A stretch of DNA of 64,000 nt from Candidatus Woesearchaeota archaeon (GTDB lineage Archaea > Nanobdellota > Nanobdellia > Pacearchaeales > GW2011-AR1), in the NCBI GenBank assembly GCA_964344105.1, contig CAYFMD010000001.1:4671-68670 (forward strand), read 5' to 3'. The notes under the pieces were generated by a model. The model was not told the DNA's origin, ran no database searches, and saw nothing but the letters and a program-made list of their open reading frames with translations. Position 1 is the stretch's first letter; every line of letters starts with the position of its first letter. Positions 2,110-40,418 of the stretch are shown here, piece after piece. The translations under genes were made by a program, and so were the position numbers.

Positions 2110-2144
2110 GGATTTAAATACTTAAAATCACATTTAAAGGTAAG

Positions 2145-5100: not shown

Positions 5101-6269
5101 GCTCATCAACTAATATTGCAGCAGATGGGACTTGTACAAAAGAAATCATCTGTCTAGCTGGAAATTGCCCATCAGAAACAAGAGGTTGCCCAACTTCAGC
5201 TTCACTAGGATGTAACTTTGATACAAATACTTGTCCAATAACCGTGCAAAATGCTCCAAGAGACCATGTACCAATAACTTTCAACTGGACATTTAGAAAT
5301 ACTCACGGTCTTGAACTAAAAAGATCTGGAAATGGAGCTGGAAATGTAGCATTCACACAATCATTCCCAATAGCAGATTTCTACACTGCCTCACTAACAG
5401 CCTCTATCAATCCTAGCTCATCAGCGGAAGTAGACTTCAATGTAGACTTCGAAAGTCCAACTTGTTATCCACAAATATCTGCACAACAAGCAAATGACTT
5501 CTCTGACTTAATTATTGGAGCAAGCTACTGGAGAGAAGATGAAACTTTCAAGAATTCTGTCCAGGATTGTAGGCGACTAGATGGTGTCGATCCAAACGGT
5601 CAACCTAGAACTACTTGCTGTCCTGATGGTTACTCATGTAACTCAGATAATGAATGTGCACTTTTAGTAGAGATTACAGGGTGCCAGCAATATGAAACAC
5701 CTGAAGAATGTGGTGCAGACTCAGGACATCCAGGAGAAGCATCAGAAATCTTAGAATCACTAGGAGACTTCATGGATGACTTCCCTCAAGGATGTTTCAA
5801 CAACGAATTATTCGGAAACGATAATCAATGTAGAAACTTTGTAGATTGTAGATGTGTATGGGACCCTGATGAAGGAGATGATGGATTATGCTTAGCAAGA
5901 TATAATGAGACAGTTGAACACATCCCTTCAGGAGATATGTGGAGTGTTGAAGATCAAACTTCAGAAATCAACGCAGCTTGTAGCGAACCTGGAAGAGAAA
6001 GAACTGGTGCCTGTACGTTCAATTTTGAATACACTGGAAGTTGCATAGATGGGGCTGAATTTGTAACAAGATCTTGGACTGCACAATACGATAACACGGA
6101 TGCATCATTTAGTGACCCTTTAGGATACTGCGCTCCTGGTTCAGAAATAATACCTTGTGAAAGAGTAATCAGATTGCCTTTCTTCAGTTTCCAGAACATA
6201 ATCGTAGCGATAATCCTCTTAGTACTAATCTATTGGTTTATCTTGAGAGACAAAGATCATAAGAAATGA
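2145..6269 (+). CDS. Giant cell-surface protein (1374 aa) with signal peptide, Cys-rich modules, a PKD-like domain and a C-terminal TM anchor
   Basis: It has a GTG start, the signal peptide MASKRGLVICTLISIILLSPMLLAQC, a WELGDGT...YTG...YVTDDRG PKD signature, and a C-terminal helix IIVAIILLVLIYWFIL followed by the basic tail RDKDHKK. Confidence 0.75.
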   Translation: MASKRGLVICTLISIILLSPMLLAQCVPTVPPTEFCDGIDNDCDGIVDEAAGSTYDLNLIAESPDTKISNPGSTVADQTPEFYITGDSRLPAIGASTKWLRHPTQDRSTPYWVQRDFNIPSIYLLGTPTISATIRAAGNDQVRAYINGDTDLILEDLNQPFEGGFVTENFNTGFISGENKLRFYLTNTDRESSLNYAFDLSIDACIPIQCFDDIDNDNDLNSGGGIDALQEFIPENNCADITYSNGEDNCDRYGHSYYFGRTDSHEINDYIDSFHEYDDIGTDGAYFCNELDADKLCELKGYSDYEIINLRSVGEVTRTECSRNKCNSDSSCVGFHSNSDNHFALWDPDAANPNGGYSGNLVRISAEQGKRGLKKVLCTNPIPSACWDGIDNEDNDGKKDFCVTPNAPSTFTFEDHYSTTMVPFLNTFGYRTINGGLNDDDATLQKICNLKGYNTVSSHNSRTWSSCGDNDNWYWSSSENNFVNGGGCYNGGTHVTTLTCSDPIDCDPDCESRYDTSEYPHDPQCTDIKDDDEGGPTVTPDPPADPLCDLNQTILIIDHDGSILPVHEDSEGTRICYDYIFNTNNTDPNATMCTGDNVVLKVNPVTGFASIPETANNDACAWADRDNSGVVDSPGADQDAYAACFGKSTTTNPECSWADRDNSGSVGHGDTPEFANCVGAVTNYTDICYDNLECRSISAGSCAVDEFTTVRLSAATEATIGNASSSLPVQICCKIVNPEITGAYWSEPFRDMRINSTDLNSLVRLRMGGIKLEDKTVDYTIKRRTGGFLDFLIPDRTIMAGSEEGFPTWRAGKDENGDLQGGEYYFIVKIDSLGLEFDTSNNPDENYRYLEVSNTQVNNPPTALITFPEDKQIYFIDSPIYFEQASFDIDDGFSYRWELGDGTVKEGNTSNYENYNFTHTYTGEENLGQQNIKLYVTDDRGLGSQDSVSILVINSTFILTYIDQPADGGSFGRQVDFDASSTYAVSSSTNIAADGTCTKEIICLAGNCPSETRGCPTSASLGCNFDTNTCPITVQNAPRDHVPITFNWTFRNTHGLELKRSGNGAGNVAFTQSFPIADFYTASLTASINPSSSAEVDFNVDFESPTCYPQISAQQANDFSDLIIGASYWREDETFKNSVQDCRRLDGVDPNGQPRTTCCPDGYSCNSDNECALLVEITGCQQYETPEECGADSGHPGEASEILESLGDFMDDFPQGCFNNELFGNDNQCRNFVDCRCVWDPDEGDDGLCLARYNETVEHIPSGDMWSVEDQTSEINAACSEPGRERTGACTFNFEYTGSCIDGAEFVTRSWTAQYDNTDASFSDPLGYCAPGSEIIPCERVIRLPFFSFQNIIVAIILLVLIYWFILRDKDHKK

Positions 6270-10990: not shown

Positions 10991-11467
10991 ATGCCTCACC
11001 AATGTACCAAATGTGGTAAAGTTTATCCCGATGCATCAGAAGAGCTTCTAAAAGGATGCGTATGCAGCAGCCGCTTTTTCTATTATATTAGACAAGAAAA
11101 GTTTGAACAATTACAGGAAGAAAAAGATCAAGTAATGGAAGAACTTGATAGAGCCGATAAAAAACAAATAGAAAAAGATATCAGAGAACTAACTGGACTA
11201 GATAAAAAACCAGATGAACCTGTGATCTTAGATTTAGAATCTGTCAGAGTATTAAAACCAGGAAAATTCGAGATAGATATAGTAAACCTTTTCTCAAAAC
11301 ACCGGCCTCTAATCTATAAATTAGAAGAAGGTAAGTATGTAATTGACTTAGCATCTACCTTAGCAGCCAATACTGAACAGCAATTAGAATCAAGAAGGGT
11401 TCTAGAGATTGAAACCAAGGAAGAGGATGAAGAGGAAGATGAAACTATTGAAAACAATAGTGAATAA
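10991..11467 (+). CDS. Zn-ribbon protein with a C-terminal acidic tail
   Basis: The N-terminus has CTKCG...GCVCSS, followed by a coiled-coil and an acidic tail. Confidence 0.5.
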   Translation: MPHQCTKCGKVYPDASEELLKGCVCSSRFFYYIRQEKFEQLQEEKDQVMEELDRADKKQIEKDIRELTGLDKKPDEPVILDLESVRVLKPGKFEIDIVNLFSKHRPLIYKLEEGKYVIDLASTLAANTEQQLESRRVLEIETKEEDEEEDETIENNSE

Positions 11468-11574
11468 CCTCTTATTAACACTCAAATTAACGATTTAACC
11501 AAATAAATACTCTCTAGTTCTATAGACTACCAGTACCAGAAAAACCTTAAATAACCTCACTACTTCTCTCATAC

Positions 11575-12831
11575 ATGGAAAAGGGTGTTAAAGAAATATT
11601 AGATGCACAACTAAAAGAAATATCTCCTCCAGCTAGTGATCTAGAAAAAATCAATAAAATTAGCAAAGAATTCCAGGAAACTTTAACTAACAACCTAAAA
11701 AAACTAAAAATAAAAGCACAAGTATTTCTTGGAGGCTCTCTAGCTAAAAACACCTTAGTAAAAAAAGACCCATATGACATAGACATTTTCGTGAGATTCG
11801 ATCCCTCTTACAAAGACAAAGATATCTCAAACCTTCTAGGAAAGGCCTTACCAGATGCTAAAAGAGTTCATGGATCTCGAGATTACTATCAACAAAAAGT
11901 AAACAAGATTATTGTTGAAATCATACCTACAATAAAAATTTCAAAACCAGATCAGGCAACAAATGTAACTGATCTAAGCTACTTCCACGTTAACTACATG
12001 TTAACTCAAATAAAAAAACACAAAAATCTAACTCAAGAAATTCAACTCGCAAAAACTTTTGCTCACGCCCAAAATGTTTACGGCGCTGAATCATATATCC
12101 ATGGTTTCTCGGGCTATGCATTAGAGCTTCTAGTCAGCCATTACAAATCATTCACTAAATTTTTAGAAGAAATTTCTAAATGGGATCCAAAAAAAGGAAA
12201 GCTAGTAATTGATCAAGAAAAATTCTATAAAAATGATAATGAAGTTCTAACTAATCTAAATAAATCTAAACAAATATCTCCAATAATTCTTATTGATCCT
12301 ACAAACAAAGAAAGAAACGCTTCATCAAGCCTTTCTAATGATACCTTCTACAAATTCCAAAACCACTGCAGATCATTTCTAAAAAAGCCATCAAAACAAG
12401 CTTTTAAACAGAAACATGTTAAAGATGAATTCAAAAACAAAAACCCAACTATTCTAACTGTAAAAACGAATAAACAAGCAGGAGACATATCTGGAACCAA
12501 AAGCAAAAAGTTCTTTGACTTCTTAATATCTAGATTAAAGAAAGAATTCACAATAAAGAAAGAAGGTTTTGAATATGAAGAAAAAGAAAACATATCAAGA
12601 TTCTATTTCATACTAGCAAAAAAGCCAGATGAAACCGTAAAAGGTCCCCCAGTTACAGCAATCCATAATCTAACTAACTTCAAAAAAGCCCATCCGAAAG
12701 CAATAATCAAAAACCATTTTGCCTACGCAACTCTAAAACATAATCTAACTTTCAAGGAATGGTTCACTAAATTCAAAAAAGATGATAAGAAGATCATTAA
12801 GGATATGGGAATAACTAGTCTAACTAACTAA
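11575..12831 (+). CDS. cca: Archaeal class I CCA-adding tRNA nucleotidyltransferase
   Basis: The GGSLAKNTLVKKDPYDIDIFVRF segment is the GS...DxD nucleotidyltransferase motif arranged as in archaeal CCA enzymes, and the length is about 418 aa. Confidence 0.65.
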   Translation: MEKGVKEILDAQLKEISPPASDLEKINKISKEFQETLTNNLKKLKIKAQVFLGGSLAKNTLVKKDPYDIDIFVRFDPSYKDKDISNLLGKALPDAKRVHGSRDYYQQKVNKIIVEIIPTIKISKPDQATNVTDLSYFHVNYMLTQIKKHKNLTQEIQLAKTFAHAQNVYGAESYIHGFSGYALELLVSHYKSFTKFLEEISKWDPKKGKLVIDQEKFYKNDNEVLTNLNKSKQISPIILIDPTNKERNASSSLSNDTFYKFQNHCRSFLKKPSKQAFKQKHVKDEFKNKNPTILTVKTNKQAGDISGTKSKKFFDFLISRLKKEFTIKKEGFEYEEKENISRFYFILAKKPDETVKGPPVTAIHNLTNFKKAHPKAIIKNHFAYATLKHNLTFKEWFTKFKKDDKKIIKDMGITSLTN

Positions 12832-12833
12832 AA

Positions 12834-13259
12834 TCACTCAGCACCATAGGCATCATTATATGCTCTAGTAAATTCTACTAATTGCACGATTTCAAGAGCC
12901 CTACTGTGATACCAATCAATCCTATCCTCTCTTCCTTCAGCAGATTCTGCAAACTCATCTCCTGGAACTAAAACTGAATATGTTCTATTTGTATCTCTAG
13001 GGGAATCAAATGAAACTGCACGCAAAGAATTTGCACTATCTCTTCTAGACAATCTTTCTGCTAAAGAATCCAAACTATTCGCCCTAAGAACTCCTCCATA
13101 ACCTTTGGCTATATATGAACCGTGAATAGCACCAGGGCTAACTCCTGTATCTTGAAAAACATGATATCTAATTGACTGGGTCTTTTTCTCTTTCCTATCT
13201 CCTCCAAGAATACTTTTTCCGTTAGCACTCATTTTATTCCTTCCCAACAGCCTGCTCAA
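12834..13259 (-). CDS. Hypothetical protein with R/S/D/A-rich, GC-shifted composition
   Basis: It is an ORF with a probable internal start (MSANGK...). Its composition is atypical for the window. Confidence 0.35.
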   Translation of the reverse strand: MSRLLGRNKMSANGKSILGGDRKEKKTQSIRYHVFQDTGVSPGAIHGSYIAKGYGGVLRANSLDSLAERLSRRDSANSLRAVSFDSPRDTNRTYSVLVPGDEFAESAEGREDRIDWYHSRALEIVQLVEFTRAYNDAYGAE

Positions 13260-14016
13260 ACATATAAGTCAAAGAACTTGCAAAGAATGGAGTATTCAAC
13301 CAAACAGCAATTTCTTCTTCAGGCATTCCAGTTTTAGAAATCATGAACAATACTTGTTCTGAATCTGAAATAAAGAATCTAGTATCAACATCTATCTTCT
13401 TAGCCTTGATCTTAAACTTAGTATTTATCTTCTTAATATCTTTCTCTTCACCGTTCAAAGCGATCTTGATCTTAATATTAGCCTTATTCAATCTATCAAA
13501 AACCAAACTAAAGAATCTTGATTTACTCTGAATCTCTTGAACTGAAGTACAAATTATAACTTCCTTAGCAGCATTCTCTAACAACTCCTTAATATGATTA
13601 TATATTGTTAGCTTACCTTTAATTGAACCACTAATATCCTCTTGCTTTATAGGCTGAATACCAACATTGTACAACTGCTCAAGCTCCTTATACTCATTAG
13701 TATCTCTCAACTTACTTATATTATCAATTCTCTCATTGGCTTCCTTCTGAGTGTTAGACTTAAGCTTCTCAATAATTATATTAGGCTTAACAGCTATGTA
13801 TTTAACTGGCTTACCTAGCTTCATAATAGCGAATCCTCTCTTCTCCAAACTCTCAAGTACATCATAAGTTCGACTTCTCGGAACACCACTAACTTCTGCA
13901 ATCTCTCCAGCACTAGCCAAACCCTTTCCTAAAAGAGCCAACCAAACCTTAGTTTCATAGATGTTTAAGGCAAAATGATCCTTAATTTGATTAACTAATT
14001 CTTGTTTAATTATCAT
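13234..14016 (-). CDS. TrmB-family transcriptional regulator
   Basis: The N-terminal wHTH is IYETKVWLALLGKGLASAGEIAEVSGVPRSRTYDVLESLEKRGF, and there is a C-terminal effector-domain-like region. Confidence 0.75.
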   Translation of the reverse strand: MIIKQELVNQIKDHFALNIYETKVWLALLGKGLASAGEIAEVSGVPRSRTYDVLESLEKRGFAIMKLGKPVKYIAVKPNIIIEKLKSNTQKEANERIDNISKLRDTNEYKELEQLYNVGIQPIKQEDISGSIKGKLTIYNHIKELLENAAKEVIICTSVQEIQSKSRFFSLVFDRLNKANIKIKIALNGEEKDIKKINTKFKIKAKKIDVDTRFFISDSEQVLFMISKTGMPEEEIAVWLNTPFFASSLTYMFEQAVGKE

Positions 14017-31419: not shown

Positions 31420-32244
31420 ATGGAAAATAAAATCCCAAAAGAATTTATTGAGAAAATAAAAGAAAACAAAAAATATCAGTCAATCAGCGACGATATAGTG
31501 ATAAAAGAAATCCAAAACTATATGCGAAAATATCAGGCTGACACTGATGAAATCTATGATGACAAGTTCGCAATTAAGGTAATCAGAAAAGAACTTCATA
31601 GACTTTACAGCAGCTATCAAACTAAAGGAAAGAAGAAAAGAGATGAAATTCTTAAGAATCTTAAAAAAGATGATCTATCAACTATCAACAAAATTCTAGA
31701 AACAACTTTGGCAACAAAAGAACGAATGCCAAATTATTCAACAATCTACCAAAAGATTTTCAAAATCACTGGTAACCCTAAATCAATCATCGACTTGGGC
31801 TGTGGTCTAAATCCTGTAAGCATCCCTTACATGAACTTATCATCAATAAAATATCACTGCTACGATATAGATGAGAGCGATATAGTTTTCTTGAATAAGC
31901 TTTTCAAGAAGATTAATGTTGATGGAAAAGCAAAAATCCTCGACGCTAGAGATCTAGATGAATTAGCCAAACTATCAAAATCAGATGTTATCTTCATGTT
32001 CAAACTTTACGATCTAATTGTCCCAAAGAACCGTAAACTAAAAAAAATTGGAGAAGAAATAATCAACCTTCTAATGACAAAAACCAACCACCTAGTAGCA
32101 AGCTTCGCAACTAAAACTCTAACTAGAAAATCCATGAAATTACCAAGGAGGATTGGCTTTGAAATGATGCTAGATAGAAATCAATTAGCCTATGAACTAA
32201 TAGAAACTGACAACGAAATCTATTATGTGATTTCTAAGAAATAA
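31420..32244 (+). CDS. Class I SAM-dependent methyltransferase with an N-terminal extension
   Basis: Motif I is [10 protein letters not shown], followed by acidic motif II-like HCYDIDE. It is divergent from tuf and shares the palindromic TATA with it. Confidence 0.6.
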
Positions 32245-32265: not shown

Positions 32266-32643
32266 TTGGCAATCTCGACCAATTTTTATAAGATGGCAAG
32301 AATATATTTAGCAGCACCTTCATTAGATTTCAATATAGGAATGGACGTCGAGATTCTGAGAAAACTATCGCAAGCACACGGAGAAACTGAAATAGGAACT
32401 TTATTTACAGACTCTATGACAAATTTCGATGCTGTAGAAGAATACTGTCGTAGAAGGGGCATAAGCATAAATGAAGGATTTAATGGGAATAGATCACCGA
32501 CAGACAAATTCTTATTAGTTTTATCACATCTAACAAGGAACAGAGACGAAACTGCATTCCATCTTACACATTGGCAAGAATATGGTACTCTAGCAGGTCT
32601 TTACTCAAAATCTGATTTAGAATTTATTAGCCTTTATGAATAA
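32266..32643 (+). CDS. Hypothetical protein (125 aa)
   Basis: It is a clean ORF, tail-to-tail with the giant secreted protein gene with no spacer. Confidence 0.4.
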   Translation: MAISTNFYKMARIYLAAPSLDFNIGMDVEILRKLSQAHGETEIGTLFTDSMTNFDAVEEYCRRRGISINEGFNGNRSPTDKFLLVLSHLTRNRDETAFHLTHWQEYGTLAGLYSKSDLEFISLYE

Positions 32644-35600
32644 TTATGATCTTTCTAACTGGCTAATAAGATCTTGAACCATATTCAAAGGGCCTCTATT
32701 ATCGCCAGGAGTACTAGAGGTAGTATAAACTTGACTACCATCAGAACTTCTAAATATCTCTATGTGCCCCCCTCCTGTTTTCCTAGCACCTAGTCCAAAC
32801 CTTTCTAGTTCCTTAACTTGCTTCCTAGAAAACGATCCTGACCATCCTCCCTTAAACGCAGCCTTAAGAGATTCCTTATCTCTCCTAGATAAAGTTACTG
32901 CAGTATTAACTGAAGGAACTTCAACCCCTATAGCGTCCATAAATTGGGCCATTATCCTTCTTTGATTGTCATCTGCCAACTCATAAGATCTAAGAAGCCT
33001 TGGACCATATGTTGTCTGAACTATCTCTAATAGATCTGGATCACCAGCAAGTTCTCCAACCTCTTGTCTAAATGAGGCCAAGTTTATATTAGGCGTATTT
33101 CCAAAAAGACCATCTACATTATCAATTCTATAAAATCTTTCAACATCTGGATTTTTCCCACCAGATGTATCAAAAACTGCAACTCCTCTCTGAGCATCTT
33201 CCAGTCCTCTATTCCTAGCAAACCTAACCCCTGGACCAAATTCCGCAATAATGGCTTCATCAGCAGCACTACCTGTTCCAACCAAATCTCCCATTTGCCT
33301 ATGCACAGGATTAATCCCAGCAACATTAGACGCCCTCTGCCTTATTTGTTGACTTTGTTGATCTAATGTACTACTAACAGAATGAGATACAGGAGAATCA
33401 CCACTAACTGGTCTCCAACCTAATCCTCTAGCTCTTTCATTAAATGCCTCTAACACATTTTCATCAAAATTAGGATCACTACCATCAAGGAAGTGACCTG
33501 TTCTAGATCCAATGGCCCTGCCATTTTCATCAACTACATGCAGGTTAAACCTGCCATCTGTTATCTCTACTTCTCCAGCACCTCTAACTCCGTTCCCTCT
33601 AGACAGAAAGCTATGTGGAAAGTCTCTACTAGATCTTCCTACCTCTAAGCCCTCGAGTTTCCTAAAATTAAACTCACCACTTTCATCAATTGTCCACATA
33701 TATCTGCCATTAGCAGGTCTTCCATTCTCTAAGAACAATCCATTTTTATCTAGTCTTGATGAGACCTCTCCAGTTGTCAAAGGATTCCTTCTACTCTCTA
33801 GTTCAAACAACAAACTCTCACTTCTTTCATTCAGAGGCACTGTTCTTCCCGTTGATGGATCAACCCACAATCTATCGTCTGCCAAGATCTCATTATCCGA
33901 TTCAACAAAAATATCTCTTCTTTGATATACCGGCAGATCATTACTGCTAGCATAACGATTAAATCTTCTTAACGCATCTTCTGATAAAACCCTATTGGCA
34001 GGGGCAATATCAACTTCCCTAAGACCTGCAGGAACTTCTACTGCAAACCTCTCCCCATTCTTCCCCAACAAAATTCCATTATCTAATGCCCTAAAATTCC
34101 CAGATTTTCTTAATTCATCAAACAATTGTCGATCAACAATGCCCAATGCTTGTCTATTTCCTAATGCATCCTCAACAACACCTATAGATTTCAATCCAGC
34201 TTTAATACCTCTAGCTGCTGATGGTACGGCTCCCAACATGCTGACTGTATCTATAAATCCTGCTGTATCCTCACTAAGAGCTGCTGAAGCACTTAAAACT
34301 AAAGCAGTATCTGTAATTGCTCCATAAGCAGTTGCTGAAAGTCCTTCTCCTAAGTAAGATGTGAACAAAGTCTCACTTGTCAATCCAGCCCTAACTACTT
34401 CTAATGCCCTTTCAGCCCTGAGCAATTTAGCACCTCCTGCCAATATTCTACCTGCACCTGCAGGAGCAGCAAGGACCGTAGCAAAGTCAGCCCCCTGGAG
34501 AATATAGTCCCCAGCACTTTTCTCAATAGGATTCCCTACCCTGTCTAAACCAAATGCACCAACCAATGGAATATCTCCTGTATACTCAACACCTATATCA
34601 GACCCATGACCTGCAATATTCCAGATAACAGGATCATTAGAGACAGCTCTATCAATCATATCCATACGCAATACAGCACTACTAAAATCTCTAGAGAATC
34701 TACTGCCGATAGCATCCCCTCTATCTTGAGAAATTGCCGCAAATAATCTTCTAGTATCACTATCAATCCTTGAATTTTCAAAAGTTAATCCCAATCTATC
34801 TGAGTAGTCTCTAAATTGTTGAGCAGTGACATAATCATCAAAGCCTCCAATATCTATAATCCTGTGAAGTCTGCCTAAATTATCAGAAGCAAAATAATCT
34901 TTCATATCTACTCCGCTAGCTACTAGATCTCTCATTCCTGAAAGCCCTATCCTTCTTCTATCTATCAAACTAAATCCTTGTTCGTCTTCATCTAAGAAAA
35001 CAGCTTGCTGACCTGCTATCTGATCTAATCTATCAGATGACAAGAAATGCCTTATTTCTGTTATGGGTCTCTGCATTTTGTTATACCATATTTCTTCAGA
35101 CTCATCCCCAATAATACCATAAATATCATCCAACAACCTTCCTCCCTCTGCACCATATTGCCTCAACCTATTATCAATCAAAGATAATTCAAATTGTACC
35201 CTAGAGGCTGTTGCCTGATCTCCTCCACCACTAAGTTCAGCATCTCTTAAACTAACCAGAGTCCTTCTCAAACCATTAGATCTTTCTAAAAAATCATTTG
35301 GATAAATATATCTATTCTCAGCAAGAGCCTTCAATCTGATCCCTTCAGGATCTGTAGGATTATAGCTTTTAAGGAATTTTTCTCTAGAGAAAGCCAAACT
35401 AATAGTTTCTCCTCTGCTATCAACATATTGGTCTCTTTCATCTAGCATATATGCTCTCAATAATCCCATCTCTGATTGCACTCTTAATTCTCTCAAAGAT
35501 CTCAATTCCCTATCTAAGGCATCAGAGGACAAATCTCTTCTAGCAGCATTTTCAAGTTCTCCTATCCGTTCAATATTTCTACTATATGAATTTCTAGAAT

Positions 35601-37212
35601 ACAAATAATTTAATCCAGCCCCTTCAGCATCTAGGCCTTGAGCGTTTTGCAATCTCATCTCAGCAAGAAGGCCTCTAGTAGCAATTTCTATTTTTGGATC
35701 AAGCTTTTCTCCTAAAAGCGCATTGGCTCTGGCAATAGACTGATCAAGATCATTCCCCTCAATTATATCTATCCTATACTGATTAACAAGTTCTAAATGC
35801 TTCAATGCCTGCAGGTCTCTTCCTTCAAATTCTCCTGAATCAATATTACTCCTTATTGATGCCAGATTACTCCTAACTTCGCTTTCAATCTGTTCCGCCC
35901 TTAATTGTTGAGCTATCAAATTATTTGAAGACAATTCCTTATAGGTATTAAGTGGAACGCTAGTAGTAGTGTAGTCACCACTAGATCTCGTAGAGATTAA
36001 GTGATACAATCCATTCTCCTCATCTACATAACCTTCTAAAATACCTGATCTAAATCTAAAACCTGTAGCAGAATCTAAATCCCCATTCTTAATTCTTAAT
36101 TTAGCATTCCCATTAACAATCTGAATAAGATGTTTACGATTATCTATCTCGGCAAATCCTGTCTTAACATCAATATATGGTACGCCATCTTTTTTTGCAC
36201 CATCAAAATAAAACTCTGCATAAGCATCTTTACTTATTCCTCTATAGCTTAAAGATCCCTTCAAATTCCTAGCACTAAGCTCTCCATGGATATTTATTTT
36301 TCTATTACCCTCATCAATAGAAATTGCATTCCCATCAAAATCTGATATATCTCTCCCGTCAAGGAATATTGTGAATTCTCCCTCTGAAGAAAAAATCTGA
36401 TTTCCCCCAAAAAATTCTCCATCAAAAACTCCGTCAGTAATGACAATCTCTACAACATTGCCTTCTGAATTAAGTTTTATTTCAACCTTCTCTCCAGAGA
36501 ATATCTGTCTTGATATCCTTCCTTCTGAGTCAATATGGGAATAATCTATATCCACATCCTCTCCACTAACCACATTATTTGCTGGATCAAATAATACTGT
36601 TCCGCCGCCCTCCCCCACATCAAAAACATAATTTCTACCGCTATAGGTAAAACTATAGCTGCCTCCCTTAGCTGATTTAAACCTAGCATAAACTATCTCA
36701 TCATCCTTATTAACCCTAACAACAGCATCTTCATATTGAATTGGCACTCCTGGAGAGATAAATTCACTAGTCCTAGTTACACCCTTAAGAGTTCTCCCGC
36801 CGACCTTGACGTCCGCCACTCCTTGATTAAGCCTTATCTCTTTTCCATCTTCATTAAAGGTCAAACTTAAACTAACATCTTGATCAGATGAAACATCAAA
36901 CCCAAACAAACTTAAATCCTTGCTAGATTTACCAGAAACTCTTAACTCGTCTTCAGCATAATTTAACCTATATCCAAGTGGGACTCTCCCAATCACATTG
37001 CCCTTATCATCCTCTATTATTTTAGTCCCATCATTTTGTATCTTGTAATTAATACTTATATCCTGTTCTTTAGCAATCTTATCAAGTCCGCTATAGAGCT
37101 CATAGTTTGGATCATTTTTATCTTCCAAAAAACTCTTATCAACTAGGCCTGCCCCATAAACTCCTCCAATGAATAATATTATAAGAACTGCTAAAAAGAA
37201 TCTACTTTTCAT
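32644..37212 (-). CDS. Giant secreted protein (1522 aa) with signal peptide
   Basis: The signal peptide is MKSRFFLAVLIILFIGGVYGAG. The N-terminal 400 aa is beta-rich and G/D/S-rich, and the C-terminal 1100 aa is R/D/L/G-rich with helical regions. I recognise no catalytic motif. Confidence 0.7.
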   Translation of the reverse strand: MKSRFFLAVLIILFIGGVYGAGLVDKSFLEDKNDPNYELYSGLDKIAKEQDISINYKIQNDGTKIIEDDKGNVIGRVPLGYRLNYAEDELRVSGKSSKDLSLFGFDVSSDQDVSLSLTFNEDGKEIRLNQGVADVKVGGRTLKGVTRTSEFISPGVPIQYEDAVVRVNKDDEIVYARFKSAKGGSYSFTYSGRNYVFDVGEGGGTVLFDPANNVVSGEDVDIDYSHIDSEGRISRQIFSGEKVEIKLNSEGNVVEIVITDGVFDGEFFGGNQIFSSEGEFTIFLDGRDISDFDGNAISIDEGNRKINIHGELSARNLKGSLSYRGISKDAYAEFYFDGAKKDGVPYIDVKTGFAEIDNRKHLIQIVNGNAKLRIKNGDLDSATGFRFRSGILEGYVDEENGLYHLISTRSSGDYTTTSVPLNTYKELSSNNLIAQQLRAEQIESEVRSNLASIRSNIDSGEFEGRDLQALKHLELVNQYRIDIIEGNDLDQSIARANALLGEKLDPKIEIATRGLLAEMRLQNAQGLDAEGAGLNYLYSRNSYSRNIERIGELENAARRDLSSDALDRELRSLRELRVQSEMGLLRAYMLDERDQYVDSRGETISLAFSREKFLKSYNPTDPEGIRLKALAENRYIYPNDFLERSNGLRRTLVSLRDAELSGGGDQATASRVQFELSLIDNRLRQYGAEGGRLLDDIYGIIGDESEEIWYNKMQRPITEIRHFLSSDRLDQIAGQQAVFLDEDEQGFSLIDRRRIGLSGMRDLVASGVDMKDYFASDNLGRLHRIIDIGGFDDYVTAQQFRDYSDRLGLTFENSRIDSDTRRLFAAISQDRGDAIGSRFSRDFSSAVLRMDMIDRAVSNDPVIWNIAGHGSDIGVEYTGDIPLVGAFGLDRVGNPIEKSAGDYILQGADFATVLAAPAGAGRILAGGAKLLRAERALEVVRAGLTSETLFTSYLGEGLSATAYGAITDTALVLSASAALSEDTAGFIDTVSMLGAVPSAARGIKAGLKSIGVVEDALGNRQALGIVDRQLFDELRKSGNFRALDNGILLGKNGERFAVEVPAGLREVDIAPANRVLSEDALRRFNRYASSNDLPVYQRRDIFVESDNEILADDRLWVDPSTGRTVPLNERSESLLFELESRRNPLTTGEVSSRLDKNGLFLENGRPANGRYMWTIDESGEFNFRKLEGLEVGRSSRDFPHSFLSRGNGVRGAGEVEITDGRFNLHVVDENGRAIGSRTGHFLDGSDPNFDENVLEAFNERARGLGWRPVSGDSPVSHSVSSTLDQQSQQIRQRASNVAGINPVHRQMGDLVGTGSAADEAIIAEFGPGVRFARNRGLEDAQRGVAVFDTSGGKNPDVERFYRIDNVDGLFGNTPNINLASFRQEVGELAGDPDLLEIVQTTYGPRLLRSYELADDNQRRIMAQFMDAIGVEVPSVNTAVTLSRRDKESLKAAFKGGWSGSFSRKQVKELERFGLGARKTGGGHIEIFRSSDGSQVYTTSSTPGDNRGPLNMVQDLISQLERS

Positions 37213-37937
37213 CCAACGACAAATACAAAACTGTATGGAACCTCCTGCAATTCATTATCATAATCTGTTATTGTATAAATCAATCTACCATCCCCAATAG
37301 GAACAAAGGCAACATCATAATTCAAGCTAGTCAAATAGCTCAAATCAACAAACTCCGGATCAGAAACATGTTTACTCACAATATCTTCTGCAGCATCATG
37401 CATATTTCCTAGATTGATCTTCAACGTAACCTCATAACTATCCTCCATAGTAAAGGTCTCTATTTCTTTACTAGCACTAACAAAAACTAAATTATCTATA
37501 TCTACAAAATCATCCCTCACCTTAATATCAGCCTCTTCAATATCTAGGGTTATATCTAATCCAACAAATTCATCCTCCAAACAAAAAGGCATTGTAATTT
37601 CTAAGTATCTCGCAATTTCATCTTCCAATTCAGGAACACTAATTAATACATCCTCCCCATTCCTAACTCCATAAGCAATCCCATTATCCCCATCCCTATA
37701 GTGGTCTTCAGGCAAATTGACATATCCTCCCTGCAATCCTACCAACCTAGCCGCATCAATTGTCCTTTGATTAAAACATTCTCTTATTGCTCTATCGATA
37801 TCTCCAATCTCCTCAAAATTACCAGATCTAAAACTATCTCCAGACCTAAACAAAACCACTAAAATTACTCCTACTACCAAAACTATAGCTATGATTATTA
37901 TCAAGGCAACTTGTGCCCTTTTACCTCTATTTTGCAT
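37209..37937 (-). CDS. N-terminally TM-anchored acidic protein, co-transcribed with the giant protein
   Basis: The TM helix is VALIIIIAIVLVVGVILVVLF. It overlaps the downstream gene by 4 nt. Confidence 0.5.
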   Translation of the reverse strand: MQNRGKRAQVALIIIIAIVLVVGVILVVLFRSGDSFRSGNFEEIGDIDRAIRECFNQRTIDAARLVGLQGGYVNLPEDHYRDGDNGIAYGVRNGEDVLISVPELEDEIARYLEITMPFCLEDEFVGLDITLDIEEADIKVRDDFVDIDNLVFVSASKEIETFTMEDSYEVTLKINLGNMHDAAEDIVSKHVSDPEFVDLSYLTSLNYDVAFVPIGDGRLIYTITDYDNELQEVPYSFVFVVG

Positions 37938-37977
37938 TAAGAATAAAGGAAAATTTACTATATAAAACTATTACAGC

Positions 37978-38382
37978 CTAAAAAGAACTAATCAACTCAT
38001 CAAACCCTTTAGCATCAAACATCATACTGCCTTTCTTATCTCCATGGCCGTGATGACCTTTCAGATGAAACTTATGTTCAATTTCCTCTTCCATCTTCTT
38101 AAATGACTTCTCTACAGCTTTCTTAAAATCCCAATCATGAGCATCAGCTTCAATAACTTTGCTAGGCAATGCTATTCTAGTATGCAAACTAAACTTCTCC
38201 CTCTTACCATCTTTCTTATACTCTCTAAGATGGAAAATCATCTCCGAAATATTCTTCACCTTATTCTGAATCCTCCCAAAATGCTCATTGAACAATTTGT
38301 CAAAACTCTCCCTATCATTATCACCAAGAACACTGAAACCGGCAGTCTTAACCTTTACCATTTCAATATAACTAAGTAACAC
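37978..38382 (-). CDS. Ribosome hibernation factor-like protein (RaiA/HPF family)
   Basis: The C-terminal segment ADAHDWDFKKAVEKSFKKMEEEIEHKFHLK aligns with E. coli HPF [29 protein letters not shown]. The probable start is at MVKVK. Confidence 0.45.
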   Translation of the reverse strand: MLLSYIEMVKVKTAGFSVLGDNDRESFDKLFNEHFGRIQNKVKNISEMIFHLREYKKDGKREKFSLHTRIALPSKVIEADAHDWDFKKAVEKSFKKMEEEIEHKFHLKGHHGHGDKKGSMMFDAKGFDELISSF

Positions 38383-38403: not shown

Positions 38404-38667
38404 CTAGATTTCAGTAGGTCTTCCCATAGAAACATATGCATCAATAGAAATATATTTTCCCCTACATTTATCTTCAGAATAAAAGTAGACTCCATCTATA
38501 AATTCAGTATTGTGAGTATTCTTGAGCCCAGATCCAACAGCAATATGATCTGGTACCAATCCGCAATTATGTGCAGAGCTTGCTAAGGACTTGTACCAAT
38601 TACCTGCAACAAATCTCTCACCAAATACAGAGACTGCTCCAAGGTACAACTTATCATTACCTGCCAT
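38404..38667 (-). CDS. Hypothetical small protein
   Basis: It is an ORF only. Confidence 0.3.
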   Translation of the reverse strand: MAGNDKLYLGAVSVFGERFVAGNWYKSLASSAHNCGLVPDHIAVGSGLKNTHNTEFIDGVYFYSEDKCRGKYISIDAYVSMGRPTEI

Positions 38668-38685
38668 AAAAACCTCTAAAATAAT

Positions 38686-39384
38686 TTAATAAAAATCACC
38701 AGAAACACAAACAAACCCATCAACACAACTCTTCTCGCCTTTCAGCTTCCAGCTCTGAACATTATGATCATGATCACTTACATGATGATACGGATTCCCA
38801 TCATGCCAAATATTATCATTGCTTCCTCCCAATGTAATAACCTCTCCGCCACAACTGTGCGAATGCTCTCTGTAATGATTATTTGTAACAACACCACATG
38901 GAGTCTTAACACTCTGCTTATGTCCACTATCATAACCAGCTCCAATCAACTTTATTGTAAACTTCTTATCATCAGAATGATACCTTGGCTCATAGCGCCT
39001 CTCATCTCTAATGTATCTAACCTTTCTAACTTCAGGCTCATGATCTCTAACATAAACTACCTTAGTTTTTGTCTTGTGTTTGTAAGGAACGTATTTCAAC
39101 CTAGCATCCTTGTAAGCCCTTTGATATCCAGGACCTGAATAAATATAATAATCATTTATTGGATTGTATTTCTTAACTCCTCCAAGTGTAATCACGTGCT
39201 TGCCATACTGATGTCCATGGTACCCCTTACCATAACTATTATGTCCATATGTGTAACCACAATCATGATAATATCCATCAAAGCCTCTACAAAGCGCAGC
39301 ATCAACAGCACTAACAGCTCCAACAACTAACACTATTCCAAAAAGAAACATCAATAATTTTTTGTTCATCATTTTTCTCATCAT
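38686..39384 (-). CDS. Secreted Tyr/His/Gly-rich protein
   Basis: The signal peptide is MMRKMMNKKLLMFLFGIVLVVGAVSA. It has repeated GYHG/YGH/YxY motifs and paired Cys residues. Confidence 0.5.
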   Translation of the reverse strand: MMRKMMNKKLLMFLFGIVLVVGAVSAVDAALCRGFDGYYHDCGYTYGHNSYGKGYHGHQYGKHVITLGGVKKYNPINDYYIYSGPGYQRAYKDARLKYVPYKHKTKTKVVYVRDHEPEVRKVRYIRDERRYEPRYHSDDKKFTIKLIGAGYDSGHKQSVKTPCGVVTNNHYREHSHSCGGEVITLGGSNDNIWHDGNPYHHVSDHDHNVQSWKLKGEKSCVDGFVCVSGDFY

Positions 39385-39409
39385 TTTAATTATTTAAAGA
39401 TTATTATAC

Positions 39410-39901
39410 TCACCTGTAAGACCATAGCACCAAATAATGCTCAGGCCTGCTCAATAGCCTAACACTATTCTCACTATGTTTATTATAGCTATAAGGACTG
39501 CTACTTTCGTAATGATTATTCTCTCTAACATAACTGTAATAAGGATAATATCTGTCAATCACATACTCTCTATCTTGGTATTTCTGACCACTATAACCTG
39601 GATAATAACTACTATACGATCTGTAACTGCTATCTCTGCTCCTATAAACCCAGCCATCGTCATATCTATCCTTGGAACTTACAGAAATCAAATTAGGTTG
39701 CCACCTATAATTAGGACGGCTATTACCATAACTATGCCTATAATCATAGCTATCATAATATTCATAACCGTAATTACCTCGGTAATGGCTACTATAATAA
39801 CTAGCACTAACAAATCCACTTCCAAGCAACAAAACCATCAAAAACATTCCAACAAATAATCCTAATCTTTTCATTTCCATCTTAACAATAACTAACTCCA
39901 C
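39410..39901 (-). CDS. Secreted Tyr/Ser-rich low-complexity protein
   Basis: The signal peptide is MKRLGLFVGMFLMVLLLGSGFVSA, and the mature part is about 30% Tyr with YYSS/YRSY repeats. Confidence 0.5.
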   Translation of the reverse strand: MELVIVKMEMKRLGLFVGMFLMVLLLGSGFVSASYYSSHYRGNYGYEYYDSYDYRHSYGNSRPNYRWQPNLISVSSKDRYDDGWVYRSRDSSYRSYSSYYPGYSGQKYQDREYVIDRYYPYYSYVRENNHYESSSPYSYNKHSENSVRLLSRPEHYLVLWSYR

Positions 39902-40418
39902 ATCCTCCTAAATATGTATAACCTGGAACAAAAGCATTTCCATAATTATTGTAACTGTAATAAGGCTGATATCTACTTATTCCTAATCCTCCACCATAAA
40001 AACCACCATAGCCTCCCCAACCTCCAAAGCCTCTATTCCAACCACCATAAGTCAAACCAGCAGTACCTACTCCGCTACTAAAATAAGGTCTATTAAAACT
40101 TTCAGGATAATCTACAAAAAAGAAGCTAGGTCTAACATCTCCAGCATCATACATTTGATATCTATAATTTCCATAACTTCCTTTAAAGATTGGAGTATTA
40201 GCATGTTGCTTGATTGGATATCTATAATTTCCCCTATAATCGTAATATCCACTACCATCATTAGAACTTTTGTAATAATAATTAGAACTACTAGAACCGT
40301 GTGGTCCTTGATATCTGTGATTGAACTCAGCAGTAGAATAGCCAGCACTAACAACACTAACACTAGCAAGCAAAAGAATCATTGCAACCACCATCACCCC
40401 AACCATTCTACTATTCAT
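39882..40418 (-). CDS. Secreted Tyr/Gly-rich low-complexity protein
   Basis: The signal peptide is MNSRMVGVMVVAMILLLASVSVVSA. It has a GGWGGYGGFYGGGLG tract and ends in a C-terminal CGVSYC. Confidence 0.5.
   Translation of the reverse strand: MNSRMVGVMVVAMILLLASVSVVSAGYSTAEFNHRYQGPHGSSSSNYYYKSSNDGSGYYDYRGNYRYPIKQHANTPIFKGSYGNYRYQMYDAGDVRPSFFFVDYPESFNRPYFSSGVGTAGLTYGGWNRGFGGWGGYGGFYGGGLGISRYQPYYSYNNYGNAFVPGYTYLGGCGVSYC

What the first reader, a model, noticed from the sequence alone, without database searches (positions are those of the whole stretch)
32266..37937. 1522-aa secreted giant protein with a co-transcribed membrane partner and a tail-to-tail small gene
The protein has a signal peptide but no C-terminal anchor, unlike the PKD surface proteins at 2-9 kb. 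Its N-terminal 400 aa is beta-rich and G/D-rich, and its C-terminal 1100 aa is R/D/L/G-rich, helical, and encoded by GC-shifted codons. I recognise no known catalytic motif. The upstream gene 37209-37937 overlaps it by 4 nt and is TM-anchored. A 125-aa gene abuts the 3' end on the opposite strand with zero spacing. This may be a host-interaction or effector-like protein of an episymbiont.
Basis: partly seen in the sequence, partly recalled or inferred. Interest (0 to 1): 0.65.

Follow-up and report, generated by a model that had tools for sequence, protein, structure and literature searches.

The report
Modular secreted effector with pilin-like partner
A tiny symbiotic archaeon (Pacearchaeota/Nanoarchaeota) encodes a rare giant secreted protein that keeps a constant body but swaps its tail for different toxin-like modules between relatives and is always paired with a small pilin-like gene, so it looks like a new archaeal version of the "polymorphic toxins" bacteria use against other cells.

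Summary
The three ORFs are real: giant 32644-37212(-), 1522 aa; partner 37209-37937(-), 242 aa, ATGA overlap; small gene 32266-32643(+). The host is a DPANN archaeon. The giant has a Sec signal, a confident beta-domain (aa 55-428), a helical trunk (429-870), a Gly/Ala-rich hydrophobic segment (~900-1010) and two C-terminal modules, A (~1151-1275) and B (~1335-1522). About 20 relatives among 1.84 billion representatives share the trunk but carry different tails: AvrB-like, PRTase-CE, Hint, unknown. Modules A and B recur behind Pretoxin-HINT domains and behind a short two-TM leader. This is polymorphic-toxin architecture on an undescribed trunk. The partner is adjacent in 12 of 12 loci and has an EppA-type prepilin site (RAQ|V). 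No S-layer, viral or plasmid match exists. Neither module has a known fold, and HicA-likeness of module B is unproven. No immunity gene is evident: the small convergent gene is a syntenic neighbour. The GC shift is compositional (GC3 flat). Some relatives suggest a naturally split HINT. Verdict: new variant of a known kind; activity and target unknown.

The parts
37959..37966 (-). TTTATATA, a TATA-box-like element 22-29 nt upstream of the partner's ATG, inside the 40-nt spacer. It is a candidate promoter for a partner+giant bicistronic (leaderless or short-leader) transcript.
   Evidence: Read directly from the sequence. Its function is inferred from general archaeal promoter architecture and was not tested.
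37209..37937 (-). Partner gene, 242 aa. A pilin-like protein whose globular domain carries two invariant Cys (C54, C119) and a GLQGGY motif.
   Evidence: ORF. 57% identity to the P0002 partner. A homologue lies immediately upstream on the same strand in 12 of 12 loci, overlapping the giant's start in 10. The family has 41 members, all DPANN where named. Alignment A5.
37845..37937 (-). Partner aa 1-31: class III (prepilin-type) signal MQNRGKRA|QVALIIIIAIVLVVGVILVVLF, with a predicted cut before the invariant Gln9, followed by the hydrophobic H-domain.
   Evidence: Gln9 is invariant in 8 of 8 sequences, and the sites read RAQV, KGQI, KAQV, RSQI, RGQV, KAQV, KGQI. Characterised EppA-dependent pilin sites are RAQI, KGQV, KGQL and KGQI, with a conserved +1 Gln (PMC4371748). 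KD 3.77.
32644..37212 (-). Giant gene, 1522 aa plus stop.
   Evidence: The identical protein occurs on 7 public contigs.
37150..37212 (-). Giant aa 1-21: Sec-type signal peptide MKSRFFLAVLIILFIGGVYGA|G.
   Evidence: KD 2.51 at aa 6-24. The n-h-c layout and the ...GGVY(G)A end are conserved in P0002. All trunk relatives have an N-terminal hydrophobic segment.
35929..37050 (-). Giant aa 55-428: all-beta domain of about 40 strands. It is the most widely conserved part of the family and the proposed docking site for the partner.
   Evidence: AF2 pLDDT 88-96. Shared with about 15 relatives. It is the only shared part in L015, L017 and L018, which still have the partner. Only weak OspA-like single-layer-sheet matches.
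34603..35928 (-). Giant aa 429-870: long helical (alpha-solenoid/TPR-like) trunk.
   Evidence: AF2 helices, pLDDT mostly 75-93. Weak TPR, 14-3-3 and BamD matches only.
34183..34518 (-). Giant aa 899-1010: conserved Gly/Ala-rich, moderately hydrophobic segment (glycine-zipper-like). A candidate membrane-insertion or translocation element.
   Evidence: KD 1.0-1.2 here and 1.5-1.8 in P0003, P0004 and P0009. High identity to P0002. pLDDT below 50. Its role is inferred.
34009..34182 (-). Giant aa 1011-1068: small alpha/beta end-piece of the constant region. Homology to P0002 stops right after GL(R/V)E(V/I)D at aa 1068.
33388..34008 (-). Giant aa 1069-1275: module A (core aa 1151-1275). Conserved residues W1173, H1200, G1211-A-G-E1214, G1239-H1240 and F1257. 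Fold unknown.
   Evidence: Absent from P0002. Present in 7 of 18 trunk-family tails. Sits at the C-terminus of the PT-HINT protein P0019 and of the two-TM-leader protein P0074. Alignment. No Pfam or PDB match. AF2 pLDDT 50-77.
33304..33387 (-). Giant aa 1276-1303: linker SHSVSSTLDQQSQQIRQRASNVAGINPV, shared with P0002 aa 1082-1108.
   Evidence: second HSP: 50% identity over 28 aa, E 0.12. A weak match, but in the same relative position.
32647..33210 (-). Giant aa 1335-1522: module B. A helical subdomain followed by a terminal alpha-beta-beta-beta-alpha unit with near-invariant His1483.
   Evidence: AF2 pLDDT above 90. About 55 stand-alone ~250-aa homologues, plus the PT-HINT protein P0070. No Pfam, PDB-sequence or Foldseek match. 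The hhalign comparison to HicA is in the right register but not significant.
32266..32643 (+). Convergent small gene: 125 aa from TTG 32266, more likely 116 aa from ATG 32293. Cytoplasmic and of unknown function. Judged a syntenic neighbour and not part of the system.
   Evidence: 44% identity (E 5e-26) to L005:6956-7357, which lies three genes from a giant with a different tail. No family match.

Best explanation
The partner and giant genes form a two-gene unit encoding a secreted, modular effector of the polymorphic-toxin type in a DPANN (Pacearchaeota-like) archaeon.

Shown:
- The giant has a Sec signal and no anchor.
- Its body (beta-domain, helical trunk, Gly/Ala-rich segment) is conserved in a small family, while the C-terminal ~450 aa is exchanged between relatives.
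- The two modules on this protein also occur as C-terminal cassettes on unrelated secreted carriers, including Pretoxin-HINT proteins.
- A gene with an EppA-type prepilin signal always sits immediately upstream and usually overlaps the giant's start.

Inferred:
- The pair is transcribed from its own TATA box and is translationally coupled.
- The partner is cut by a prepilin peptidase and stays in the membrane or enters a pilus-like fibre by its hydrophobic N-terminal helix.
- Its disulfide-bonded globular domain binds the giant's beta-domain, so the otherwise unanchored giant is displayed on the cell surface.
- The helical trunk projects the tail. On contact with another cell (the host, or a competitor), the Gly/Ala-rich segment helps pass modules A and B across the target membrane.
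- Both modules then act enzymatically inside the target. Each has conserved His or His/Glu residues. Module B ends in a HicA-like alpha-beta-beta-beta-alpha unit, so RNA cleavage is the leading guess.
- No self-immunity gene is needed or present next to it, which would fit a target that is not kin.
For: Architecture:
- P0001 and P0002 are 46% identical over aa 1-1068 and unrelated afterwards.
- The exhaustive search finds about 20 trunk relatives. Their tails form a mosaic: module A in 7 of 18, PRTase-CE in 2, Hint in 3, the rest unique.

Known conflict-system domains on relatives:
- AvrB_AvrC on P0002 (25.8 bits, above GA 23.2).
- PRTase-CE on P0004 (29.6 bits, above GA 27).
- Hint and PT-HINT.

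Cassette behaviour:
- Module A lies at the C-terminus of P0019 (PT-HINT E 6e-17) and module B at the C-terminus of P0070 (PT-HINT E 5e-10).
- Both modules also occur behind a TM1-ITGxV-TM2 leader.

Partner:
- Adjacent in 12 of 12 loci and overlapping in 10.
- More conserved than the giant (57% against 46%).
- Its site matches EppA-type pilins.
- In L015, L017 and L018 only the beta-domain is shared, yet the partner remains.

Secretion: a single N-terminal hydrophobic segment.

Native, non-mobile locus:
- Housekeeping neighbours.
- Flat GC3.
- No phage or plasmid match.
Against: - No toxin activity or known toxin fold could be assigned to module A or B of this protein.
- There is no downstream same-strand immunity gene, and the adjacent 125-aa gene is not tail-specific.
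- This protein has no pre-toxin domain such as PT-HINT.
- Stand-alone module B homologues have a two-TM hairpin that would place the domain in the cytoplasm of the producer. That is odd for an exported toxin.
- Partner-giant binding, prepilin processing and membrane translocation are all inferred.
- No prepilin peptidase or pilus genes were seen among the window ORFs examined (not all ORFs were scanned).
- No family-wide junction motif could be shown.
Confidence: 0.6

Rival explanations
1. It is a host-attachment adhesin and not a toxin. The giant would be a surface fibre displayed by the pilin-like partner, and its variable C-terminal modules would bind, or enzymatically modify, host surface structures. 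They would vary because hosts vary, and nothing would be delivered into another cell.
For: - Beta-rich N-terminal domain plus long helical stalk, with no known toxin fold in this protein.
- No immunity gene.
- The same window holds a second unit of pilin-like genes followed by PKD surface proteins.
- Distant partner paralogues pair with other secreted proteins that carry no toxin hallmarks.
Against: - The tails found on relatives (AvrB/Fido-like, PRTase-CE, PT-HINT-linked cassettes) act on intracellular targets in known systems (established knowledge of those families; domain hits).
- Modules A and B lack Cys, and their stand-alone forms look cytoplasmic.
- Cassette shuffling between unrelated carriers is typical of toxins.
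Confidence: 0.2
2. It is a multifunctional surface enzyme or sensor for the producer's own physiology. The C-terminal modules would be ordinary DPANN domains, also present as membrane-tethered cytoplasmic proteins, fused to a surface scaffold with no role in conflict.
For: - About 55 stand-alone module B proteins exist with a TM hairpin, and no neighbouring antitoxin was identified.
- The locus sits among housekeeping genes with conserved synteny: FmrO, Metallophos and the 125-aa gene.
Against: - It does not explain wholesale tail replacement between 46%-identical proteins.
- It does not explain the association of both modules with Pretoxin-HINT.
- It does not explain the effector-type domains on sister proteins.
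Confidence: 0.12
3. It is an S-layer, cell-wall or other structural envelope protein.
For: It is a large secreted protein with a beta-rich domain in an archaeon. Nothing else supports this reading.
Against: - No Pfam, NCBIfam or Foldseek match to any S-layer or envelope family.
- Extreme rarity: 2 proteins in 5.8 billion by word search and about 20 distant relatives in 1.84 billion representatives.
- Variable enzymatic-looking tails.
- No anchor.
Confidence: 0.03

Closest known systems
Bacterial polymorphic toxin systems (Rhs/YD, CdiA, MafB, LXG and PT-HINT-containing toxins; Zhang, Aravind and colleagues 2012; extended to archaea by Makarova and colleagues 2019, both cited from memory; the archaeal dark-matter review PMC6393860 mentions archaeal polymorphic toxin loci)
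   Same: - An N-terminal secretion signal, a long conserved body, and an abrupt switch to unrelated C-terminal modules between homologues.
- The same modules are reused on other carriers, some of them behind Pretoxin-HINT.
- Relatives carry known conflict-system domains (AvrB/Fido-like, PRTase-CE).
- An orphan-like cassette lies next to one relative (L007).
   Different: - The trunk matches no described trafficking or repeat domain: no RHS/YD, FHA, LXG, DUF4157 or PT-TG.
- Neither module of this protein belongs to a described toxin family.
- No cognate immunity gene follows.
- The obligate partner is a prepilin-like protein, which is not a described component of these systems.
- The host is a DPANN archaeon.
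Streptomyces umbrella toxin particles (UmbC with UmbA and UmbB; PMC11062931)
   Same: A large secreted polymorphic toxin with an extended helical stalk and a variable C-terminal toxin domain. It works only as a complex with small proteins encoded alongside it.
   Different: - No sequence or fold relation was detected, and no ALF repeats, lectin or trypsin-like partner.
- The partner here is a single prepilin-like protein.
- Particle formation is unknown.
- The organism is an archaeon.
SPEARE giant proteins of Nanohaloarchaeota (PMC6642349)
   Same: Very large, mostly extracellular DPANN proteins proposed to mediate contact with, and attack on, the host cell.
   Different: - SPEARE proteins are 3,000-8,500 aa and are anchored by a TM near the C-terminus.
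- They contain laminin-G, serine protease and type III restriction domains, and their conserved part is cytoplasmic.
- None of these features is present here.
EppA-dependent type IV pilins of Methanococcus maripaludis (EpdA-E; PMC4371748)
   Same: The partner's N-terminus has the same processing-site type, [KR][GA]Q[VIL] with +1 Gln, followed by a hydrophobic H-domain of about 20 residues.
   Different: - The +5 Glu is absent.
- The globular domain (GLQGGY motif, two Cys) has no pilin family match.
- No pilus assembly genes lie nearby.
- The gene is coupled to a giant secreted protein and not to pilus genes.
HicA mRNA-interferase toxins (PDB 6HPB, 1WHZ, 4C26, 4P78, 9SVK)
   Same: The last ~60 aa of module B are predicted as alpha-beta-beta-beta-alpha. 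A near-invariant G-x-H on the first strand aligns with the HicA G-(G/S)-H in hhalign.
   Different: - Not significant: hhalign P 0.04 and probability 1.3%.
- Pfam HicA_toxin hits 1 of 30 members, at E 0.096.
- It does not appear among the listed Foldseek hits.
- Module B has an extra ~120-aa N-terminal subdomain, and no HicB-like partner was found.

Membership tests
Polymorphic toxin system (Zhang/Aravind sense) | N-terminal secretion or trafficking signal | tested here: met
   Sec-type signal at aa 1-21 (KD 2.5), conserved in relatives.
Polymorphic toxin system (Zhang/Aravind sense) | Conserved N-terminal/central region with an abrupt switch to unrelated C-terminal domains among homologues | tested here: met
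   46% identity up to aa 1068, then none. The tails of 18 relatives form a mosaic.
Polymorphic toxin system (Zhang/Aravind sense) | The C-terminal domain belongs to a recognised toxin family or is demonstrably toxic | tested here: inconclusive
   Modules A and B of this protein match nothing in Pfam, NCBIfam, PDB sequences or Foldseek. Relatives carry AvrB-like and PRTase-CE domains. Toxicity cannot be tested here.
Polymorphic toxin system (Zhang/Aravind sense) | Toxin cassettes shared between different delivery architectures; pre-toxin domains such as PT-HINT | tested here: met
   Module A occurs on P0019 and module B on P0070, both after PT-HINT. Both modules also occur behind a two-TM ITGxV leader. 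The window protein itself has no PT-HINT.
Polymorphic toxin system (Zhang/Aravind sense) | Cognate immunity gene immediately downstream, co-varying with the toxin tail | tested here: not met
   No same-strand downstream gene exists. The abutting convergent gene has a 44%-identical homologue beside a giant with a different tail. In other loci the first downstream gene is unique to each locus, which could fit convergent immunity genes. That does not apply in the window.
Archaeal class III signal / type IV pilin-like proteins (partner) | [KR]-[GA]-cleavage-hydrophobic H-domain near the N-terminus; +1 Gln for EppA substrates | tested here: met
   GKRA|QVALIIIIAIVLVVGVILVV. Gln is invariant in 8 of 8. 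Reference sites are RAQI, KGQV, KGQL and KGQI (PMC4371748).
Archaeal class III signal / type IV pilin-like proteins (partner) | +5 Glu, common in EppA-type and bacterial pilins | tested here: not met
   Position +5 is Ile, Phe or Leu in all partners.
Archaeal class III signal / type IV pilin-like proteins (partner) | Match to curated pilin or class III signal models; processing by a prepilin peptidase; assembly genes | tested here: inconclusive
   No Pfam or NCBIfam pilin model hit at E up to 0.1. No peptidase or pilus ATPase among the ten large window ORFs scanned. Cleavage cannot be tested here.
HicA toxin (module B terminal unit) | dsRBD-like alpha-beta-beta-beta-alpha fold with a catalytic His on strand 1 | tested here: inconclusive
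S-layer / cell-wall structural proteins | Match to a known envelope protein family or fold over most of the length | tested here: not met
   No family hit. The best Foldseek matches are generic beta+alpha-solenoid proteins with TM about 0.08.
   Pfam scans of the isolated fragments up to E 10, of the members of alignments A4 and A8, and profile searches against the PDB all found nothing.
SPEARE proteins | Laminin-G/adhesion domains, serine protease, C-terminal TM, cytoplasmic type III restriction domain | tested here: not met
   No such Pfam hits and no C-terminal TM. Definition from PMC6642349.

The most novel reading that the evidence does not exclude
DPANN archaea of the Pacearchaeota/Nanoarchaeota group possess a previously undescribed effector-delivery apparatus. 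An EppA-type pilin-like protein docks the beta-domain of a giant secreted trunk onto the cell surface or onto a type IV pilus-like fibre. The trunk's glycine-zipper segment then carries interchangeable enzymatic tails into the host cell. Two of those tails are new toxin folds, module A (His/Glu/His) and module B (His, HicA-like). In sister lineages the same trunk is armed in trans. The trunk ends in the N-terminal third of a HINT domain. Separately secreted toxins begin with the complementary HINT part, so a split-intein-like reaction couples, or exchanges, toxins on one trunk outside the cell.
Probability: 0.15. Interest if true: 0.88.

Novelty: new variant of a known kind. Interest (0 to 1): 0.66.

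Why it matters
How DPANN episymbionts, which make up a large share of archaeal diversity, attach to and manipulate their hosts is largely unknown. Very few molecular candidates exist.

This locus offers several concrete things to work with:
- A gene pair conserved in 12 of 12 loci, with a clear division of labour: a pilin-like anchor, a constant trunk and exchangeable tails.
- Two new candidate effector domain families, each with a short list of residues to mutate.
- Evidence that polymorphic-toxin logic, including Pretoxin-HINT, operates in these archaea on a scaffold absent from current domain libraries.

If the split-HINT arrangement in relatives is functional, it would be the first natural case of toxins being loaded onto a carrier by a split intein-like domain. 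That would be of interest both for toxin biology and for protein-ligation tools.

Tried and rejected
1. **Known families for the giant, the partner and the small gene.** Pfam and NCBIfam gave nothing. Scans of the isolated C-terminal fragments up to E 10 also gave nothing.
2. **Word-indexed homology search with the C-terminal 454 aa.** No hits, not even to the protein itself, so that tool is blind here.
3. **Genome-collection scan with the giant alignment.** Nothing found.
5. **HicA hypothesis for module B.**
   - Tested by Pfam on 30 members, by a profile against PDB sequences and by hhalign against five genuine HicA sequences.
   - The register is right but the statistics are insignificant, so I kept it only as a lead.
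6. **Barnase/RNase T1-like idea for module A.** This came from the PH...GE...GH(Y/F) motif. I dropped it because the spacing and the missing Arg do not fit, and no Pfam or PDB support appeared.
7. **uL16/L10e resemblance of module A** (E 0.046 over 30 aa). Treated as chance.
8. **The 125-aa gene as an immunity protein.** Rejected, because its homologue accompanies a giant with a different tail.
9. **Foreign origin of the GC-richer 3' half.** Rejected, because GC3 and Arg codon use are uniform.
10. **Viral or plasmid origin.** No tblastn hit.
11. **A family-wide junction motif at the trunk/tail boundary.** Only P0002 aligns there.
12. **Other partner-like genes, Hint fragments or module copies in the window.** None found by motif scan or tblastn. 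The two prepilin-like genes before the PKD proteins were seen later, by eye.
13. **The Makarova 2019 mBio paper on archaeal polymorphic toxins.** It could not be retrieved, so statements about it are from memory.

Full report
**1. Observation**

The ORFs are exactly as described. The giant is 32644..37212(-), 1522 aa. The upstream gene is 37209..37937(-), 242 aa. The small convergent ORF is 32266..32643(+). The partner's stop and the giant's start overlap as GGATGAAAAG, an ATGA overlap. The two convergent genes' stop codons are directly adjacent.

A TTTATATA element lies 22-29 nt upstream of the partner's ATG, within the 40-nt spacer to the preceding gene. The pair therefore plausibly has its own promoter.

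The window is archaeal chromosome. It holds aEF-1alpha, aEF-2, RNA polymerase subunits, FttA, Rad50 and deoxyhypusine synthase. Overall GC is about 36%.

The giant has one strong hydrophobic segment (aa 6-24) and no C-terminal anchor. The PKD proteins at 2-9 kb do have TM segments near their C-termini.

First, the GC rise in the 3' half is confined to codon positions 1 and 2. GC3 stays at 0.23-0.27 and Arg is AGR throughout, so the rise reflects Gly/Ala/Arg content, not foreign codons. Second, the small gene more likely starts at ATG 32293, giving 116 aa as in the public gene call.

**2. Anatomy of the giant**

Pfam and NCBIfam find nothing. An AlphaFold2 model of aa 1-1068, built with 24 family sequences, gives:
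- a very confident all-beta domain (aa 55-428, pLDDT about 90-96, roughly 40 strands);
- a helical trunk (aa 429-870, pLDDT mostly 75-93);
- a low-confidence Gly/Ala-rich segment (aa 899-1010);
- a small alpha/beta end-piece.

The Gly/Ala-rich segment is only moderately hydrophobic here (KD 1.0-1.2). It reaches 1.5-1.8 in relatives.

Foldseek against the PDB gives only generic "beta domain plus alpha-solenoid" matches, with TM about 0.08 and rmsd 30-47 Å. OspA-type single-layer sheets and TPR-like proteins match sub-regions weakly.

A second model covers aa 1069-1522. Module A has five strands and a helix at pLDDT 50-77. Module B (aa ~1338-1522) has pLDDT above 90: a helical subdomain followed by a terminal alpha-beta-beta-beta-alpha unit.

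**3. Relatives and the variable tail**

The word-indexed search of 5.8 billion clusters finds only the protein itself and P0002. P0002 is 46% identical over aa 1-1068. After that it is unrelated, apart from a 28-aa linker (giant 1276-1303, P0002 1082-1108).

P0002's own tail matches the AvrB_AvrC effector family above the gathering score.

The exhaustive HMMER search of 1.84 billion representatives, using aa 323-1522, gives 88 hits in three classes:
- about 20 large trunk relatives;
- a handful of proteins matching module A;
- about 55 stand-alone ~250-aa proteins matching module B.

BLAST mapping shows that the large relatives share the beta-domain and the helical/hydrophobic region. Their tails compared all-against-all form a mosaic. 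Module A occurs in 7 of 18, PRTase-CE in P0003 and P0004 (above the gathering score only in P0004), Hint in P0006, P0009 and P0020, AvrB-like in P0002, and the others are unique. Module B occurs only in the window protein.

A metagenome scan added L005, at 29% identity, with yet another tail.

**4. The modules are cassettes**

Module A lies at the extreme C-terminus of P0019, a secreted protein with Pretoxin-HINT (E 6e-17). Module B lies at the C-terminus of P0070, which also has PT-HINT (E 5e-10).

Both modules also occur behind a short TM1-ITGxV-TM2 leader: P0074 for module A, and about 55 proteins for module B. The same two domains are thus attached to three unrelated N-terminal architectures. 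That is the behaviour of polymorphic-toxin cassettes (established knowledge of those systems).

Module A's conserved residues are W1173, H1200, G-A-G-E1214, G-H1240 and F1257. Module B's include the near-invariant H1483 on the first strand of the terminal unit.

Neither module matches Pfam, PDB sequences or PDB folds.

I tested my impression that the end of module B is HicA-like. I used five genuine HicA sequences recovered from the PDB. hhalign aligns them in the expected register, with the His residues superposed, but at P 0.04 and probability 1.3%. This remains a lead and is not a finding.

**5. The partner**

The upstream gene is more conserved than the giant (57% against 46% identity).

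A homologue lies immediately upstream on the same strand in all 12 independent loci examined: the window, L001, L005, L006, L007, L008, L009, L015, L016, L017, L018 and L021. It overlaps the giant's start in 10 of them. In L015, L017 and L018 the downstream protein shares only the beta-domain with the giant. The conserved unit is therefore the partner plus the beta-domain, and I infer that these two interact.

All partners begin with [KR]-x-[G/A/S]-Q-[V/I/T] followed by about 20 hydrophobic residues, with the Gln invariant. Two Cys and a GLQGGY motif are also invariant or nearly so.

The sites read RAQV, KGQI, KAQV, RSQI, RGQV, KAQV and KGQI. The experimentally characterised EppA-dependent pilins of M. 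maripaludis have RAQI, KGQV, KGQL and KGQI, with a conserved +1 Gln (PMC4371748). The +5 Glu is absent, however, and no curated pilin model matches.

The partner family has 41 members. Those with names are Nanoarchaeota, Woesearchaeota or "archaeon". Reference genomes that carry it are Pacearchaeota or Nanoarchaeota MAGs.

More distant paralogues precede a different family of Sec-signal proteins of 520-730 aa. In the window itself, two prepilin-like genes precede the PKD surface proteins. A pilin-like gene followed by a large secreted protein therefore appears to be a general design in these organisms.

**6. Immunity and context**

No gene follows the giant on the same strand. The abutting 125-aa gene has a 44%-identical homologue in L005, three genes away from a giant with a different tail. 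It belongs to the conserved neighbourhood.

That neighbourhood also includes FmrO (window and L006) and a metallophosphoesterase (L005 and L009).

In the other loci the first downstream, convergent gene is unique to each locus. Such genes could be convergent immunity genes, but the window has no counterpart.

The giant has no tblastn match in phage or plasmid collections.

**7. Interpretation**

The best-supported reading is a polymorphic-toxin-type effector on an undescribed trunk, displayed or handled by a prepilin-like partner, in a DPANN archaeon.

Four things are shown: secretion signal and lack of anchor, constant body with exchangeable tail, cassette sharing with PT-HINT proteins, and strict partner linkage with an EppA-type site. 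Everything else is inferred: partner-giant binding, surface or pilus display, membrane passage via the Gly/Ala-rich segment, enzymatic (possibly RNase) activity of the modules, and a non-kin target.

The main weaknesses are three. Neither module of this protein has a recognised toxin fold. There is no immunity gene. And the stand-alone module B homologues appear to be membrane-tethered cytoplasmic proteins.

The chief rival is a non-toxic host-attachment adhesin with variable binding or enzymatic tips. A structural envelope role is very unlikely.

**8. Comparison with known systems**

It works like bacterial polymorphic toxins and, in overall design, like Streptomyces umbrella particles, which are a large stalked polymorphic toxin with co-encoded partners (PMC11062931). 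It shares no detectable trunk or partner domains with either.

It is unlike the SPEARE proteins of Nanohaloarchaeota in size, anchoring and domains (PMC6642349).

I file it as a new variant of a known kind. The membership tests are met for secretion, for constant/variable architecture and for cassette sharing. The test for an adjacent immunity gene is not met. The test for toxin identity is inconclusive.

**9. Side observation of possible importance**

Three trunk-family giants end at the same position inside a Hint domain, about 65 aa after the Cys block: ...GCFLA...(I/Y)II(E/D)YEI(L/I/K)(G)*. They are L018, P0009 in L007 and P0020 in L021.

Four separate proteins begin with a Sec signal followed by the complementary part of PT-HINT (...VT.EHPF...VVHNS) and then different tails. 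These are L007:11639-12544 (adjacent to P0009), L021:3-848 (5 kb from P0020), P0070 (module B) and P0019 (module A).

This looks like a naturally split HINT that could couple secreted toxins to the trunk. No paper in the searchable library links split inteins with polymorphic toxins. The window's giant has no Hint, so this bears on the family and not on this gene directly.

Noticed in passing
L007:11402-12544; L018:11800-12140; L021:9400-9660 and L021:3-848(-); proteins P0009, P0020, P0019, P0070: Apparent naturally split HINT. Three trunk-family giants stop at the same point about 65 aa into a Hint domain (...YRIIEYEI(L/I)G*). Four separate Sec-signal proteins start with the complementary PT-HINT part (..VT.EHPF..VVHNS) followed by different toxin tails. 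In two of the three cases such a gene lies adjacent or within 5 kb on the same contig. This could be trans-association or trans-splicing of toxins onto the trunk. No paper in the library links split inteins and polymorphic toxins.
   Followed up: partly
window 1010-1717(+) and 1708-2109(+), upstream of 2145-6269 and 6266-8965: Two small genes with prepilin-like N-termini (...SKRSQ|AHVEMILATTLFIGFLIF, which has +1 Gln and +5 Glu, and MEMRNKKG|FIRIIEAIFAILII) directly precede the two PKD surface proteins. This is a second unit of pilin-like genes plus a large surface protein in the same window.
   Followed up: partly
L005:2864-2866: The L005 homologue of the giant is one reading frame (1085-5569) interrupted by a single in-frame TAA. 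It could be a sequencing error, a pseudogene or read-through; this is not resolved.
   Followed up: partly
window 38404-40418(-): A tight same-strand run of small genes lies upstream of the partner. Three of them have signal peptides and extreme Tyr/Gly/Ser/His/Asn-rich composition (232, 163 and 178 aa). There is also an 87-aa ORF and a 134-aa ORF (37978-38382) with weak HPF/YfiA and Tox-MPTase2 hits (E about 0.002). The run is not conserved next to the partner in other loci.
   Followed up: partly
proteins P0017, P0022-P0088, P0074: A family of about 55 archaeal ~250-aa proteins with an N-terminal TM1-(S/N/G)ITGx(V/I)-TM2 leader. Most are fused to module B and one is fused to module A. The leader looks like a third, short carrier for the same cassettes; its topology and role are unknown.
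   Followed up: partly
L005:9520-12881; L011:2369-9388; L012:7001-9830 and 11013-13858; L019:8004-16606: Distant partner paralogues (KKGQ or KRGQ N-termini) precede another family of Sec-signal proteins of 520-730 aa that are related to each other. In a complete Pacearchaeota genome (CP061211), a 622-aa partner-like protein precedes a protein of more than 2246 aa with a Peptidase_M23 domain (E 2e-17).
   Followed up: partly
giant aa 1196-1222 (window ~33547-33627): Module A's core (l-P-H-x-v-l-a-x-g-k-x-v-x-G-A-G-E) resembles a loop of archaeal ribosomal protein uL16/L10e ([24 protein letters not shown]). A profile search against the PDB gives E 0.046 over 30 residues. Probably chance.
   Followed up: no
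L008:10192-13568; L018:12221-13364; L006:816-1691: Conflict-type genes sit near some relatives. RtcB, an ADP-ribosylglycohydrolase and GDSL lipases lie downstream of the P0006 giant. An HTH+nucleotidyltransferase gene and a possible HEPN-like gene (both judged by eye, not scanned) follow the L018 giant. A Fic-domain gene lies upstream of the P0003 partner.
   Followed up: no
window 31420-32244(+) and L006:8562-9407: An FmrO-type rRNA methyltransferase (51% identical between the two loci) is a conserved neighbour of the giant's 3' end in the window and in L006. This indicates a stable chromosomal position for the locus despite tail exchange.
   Followed up: yes
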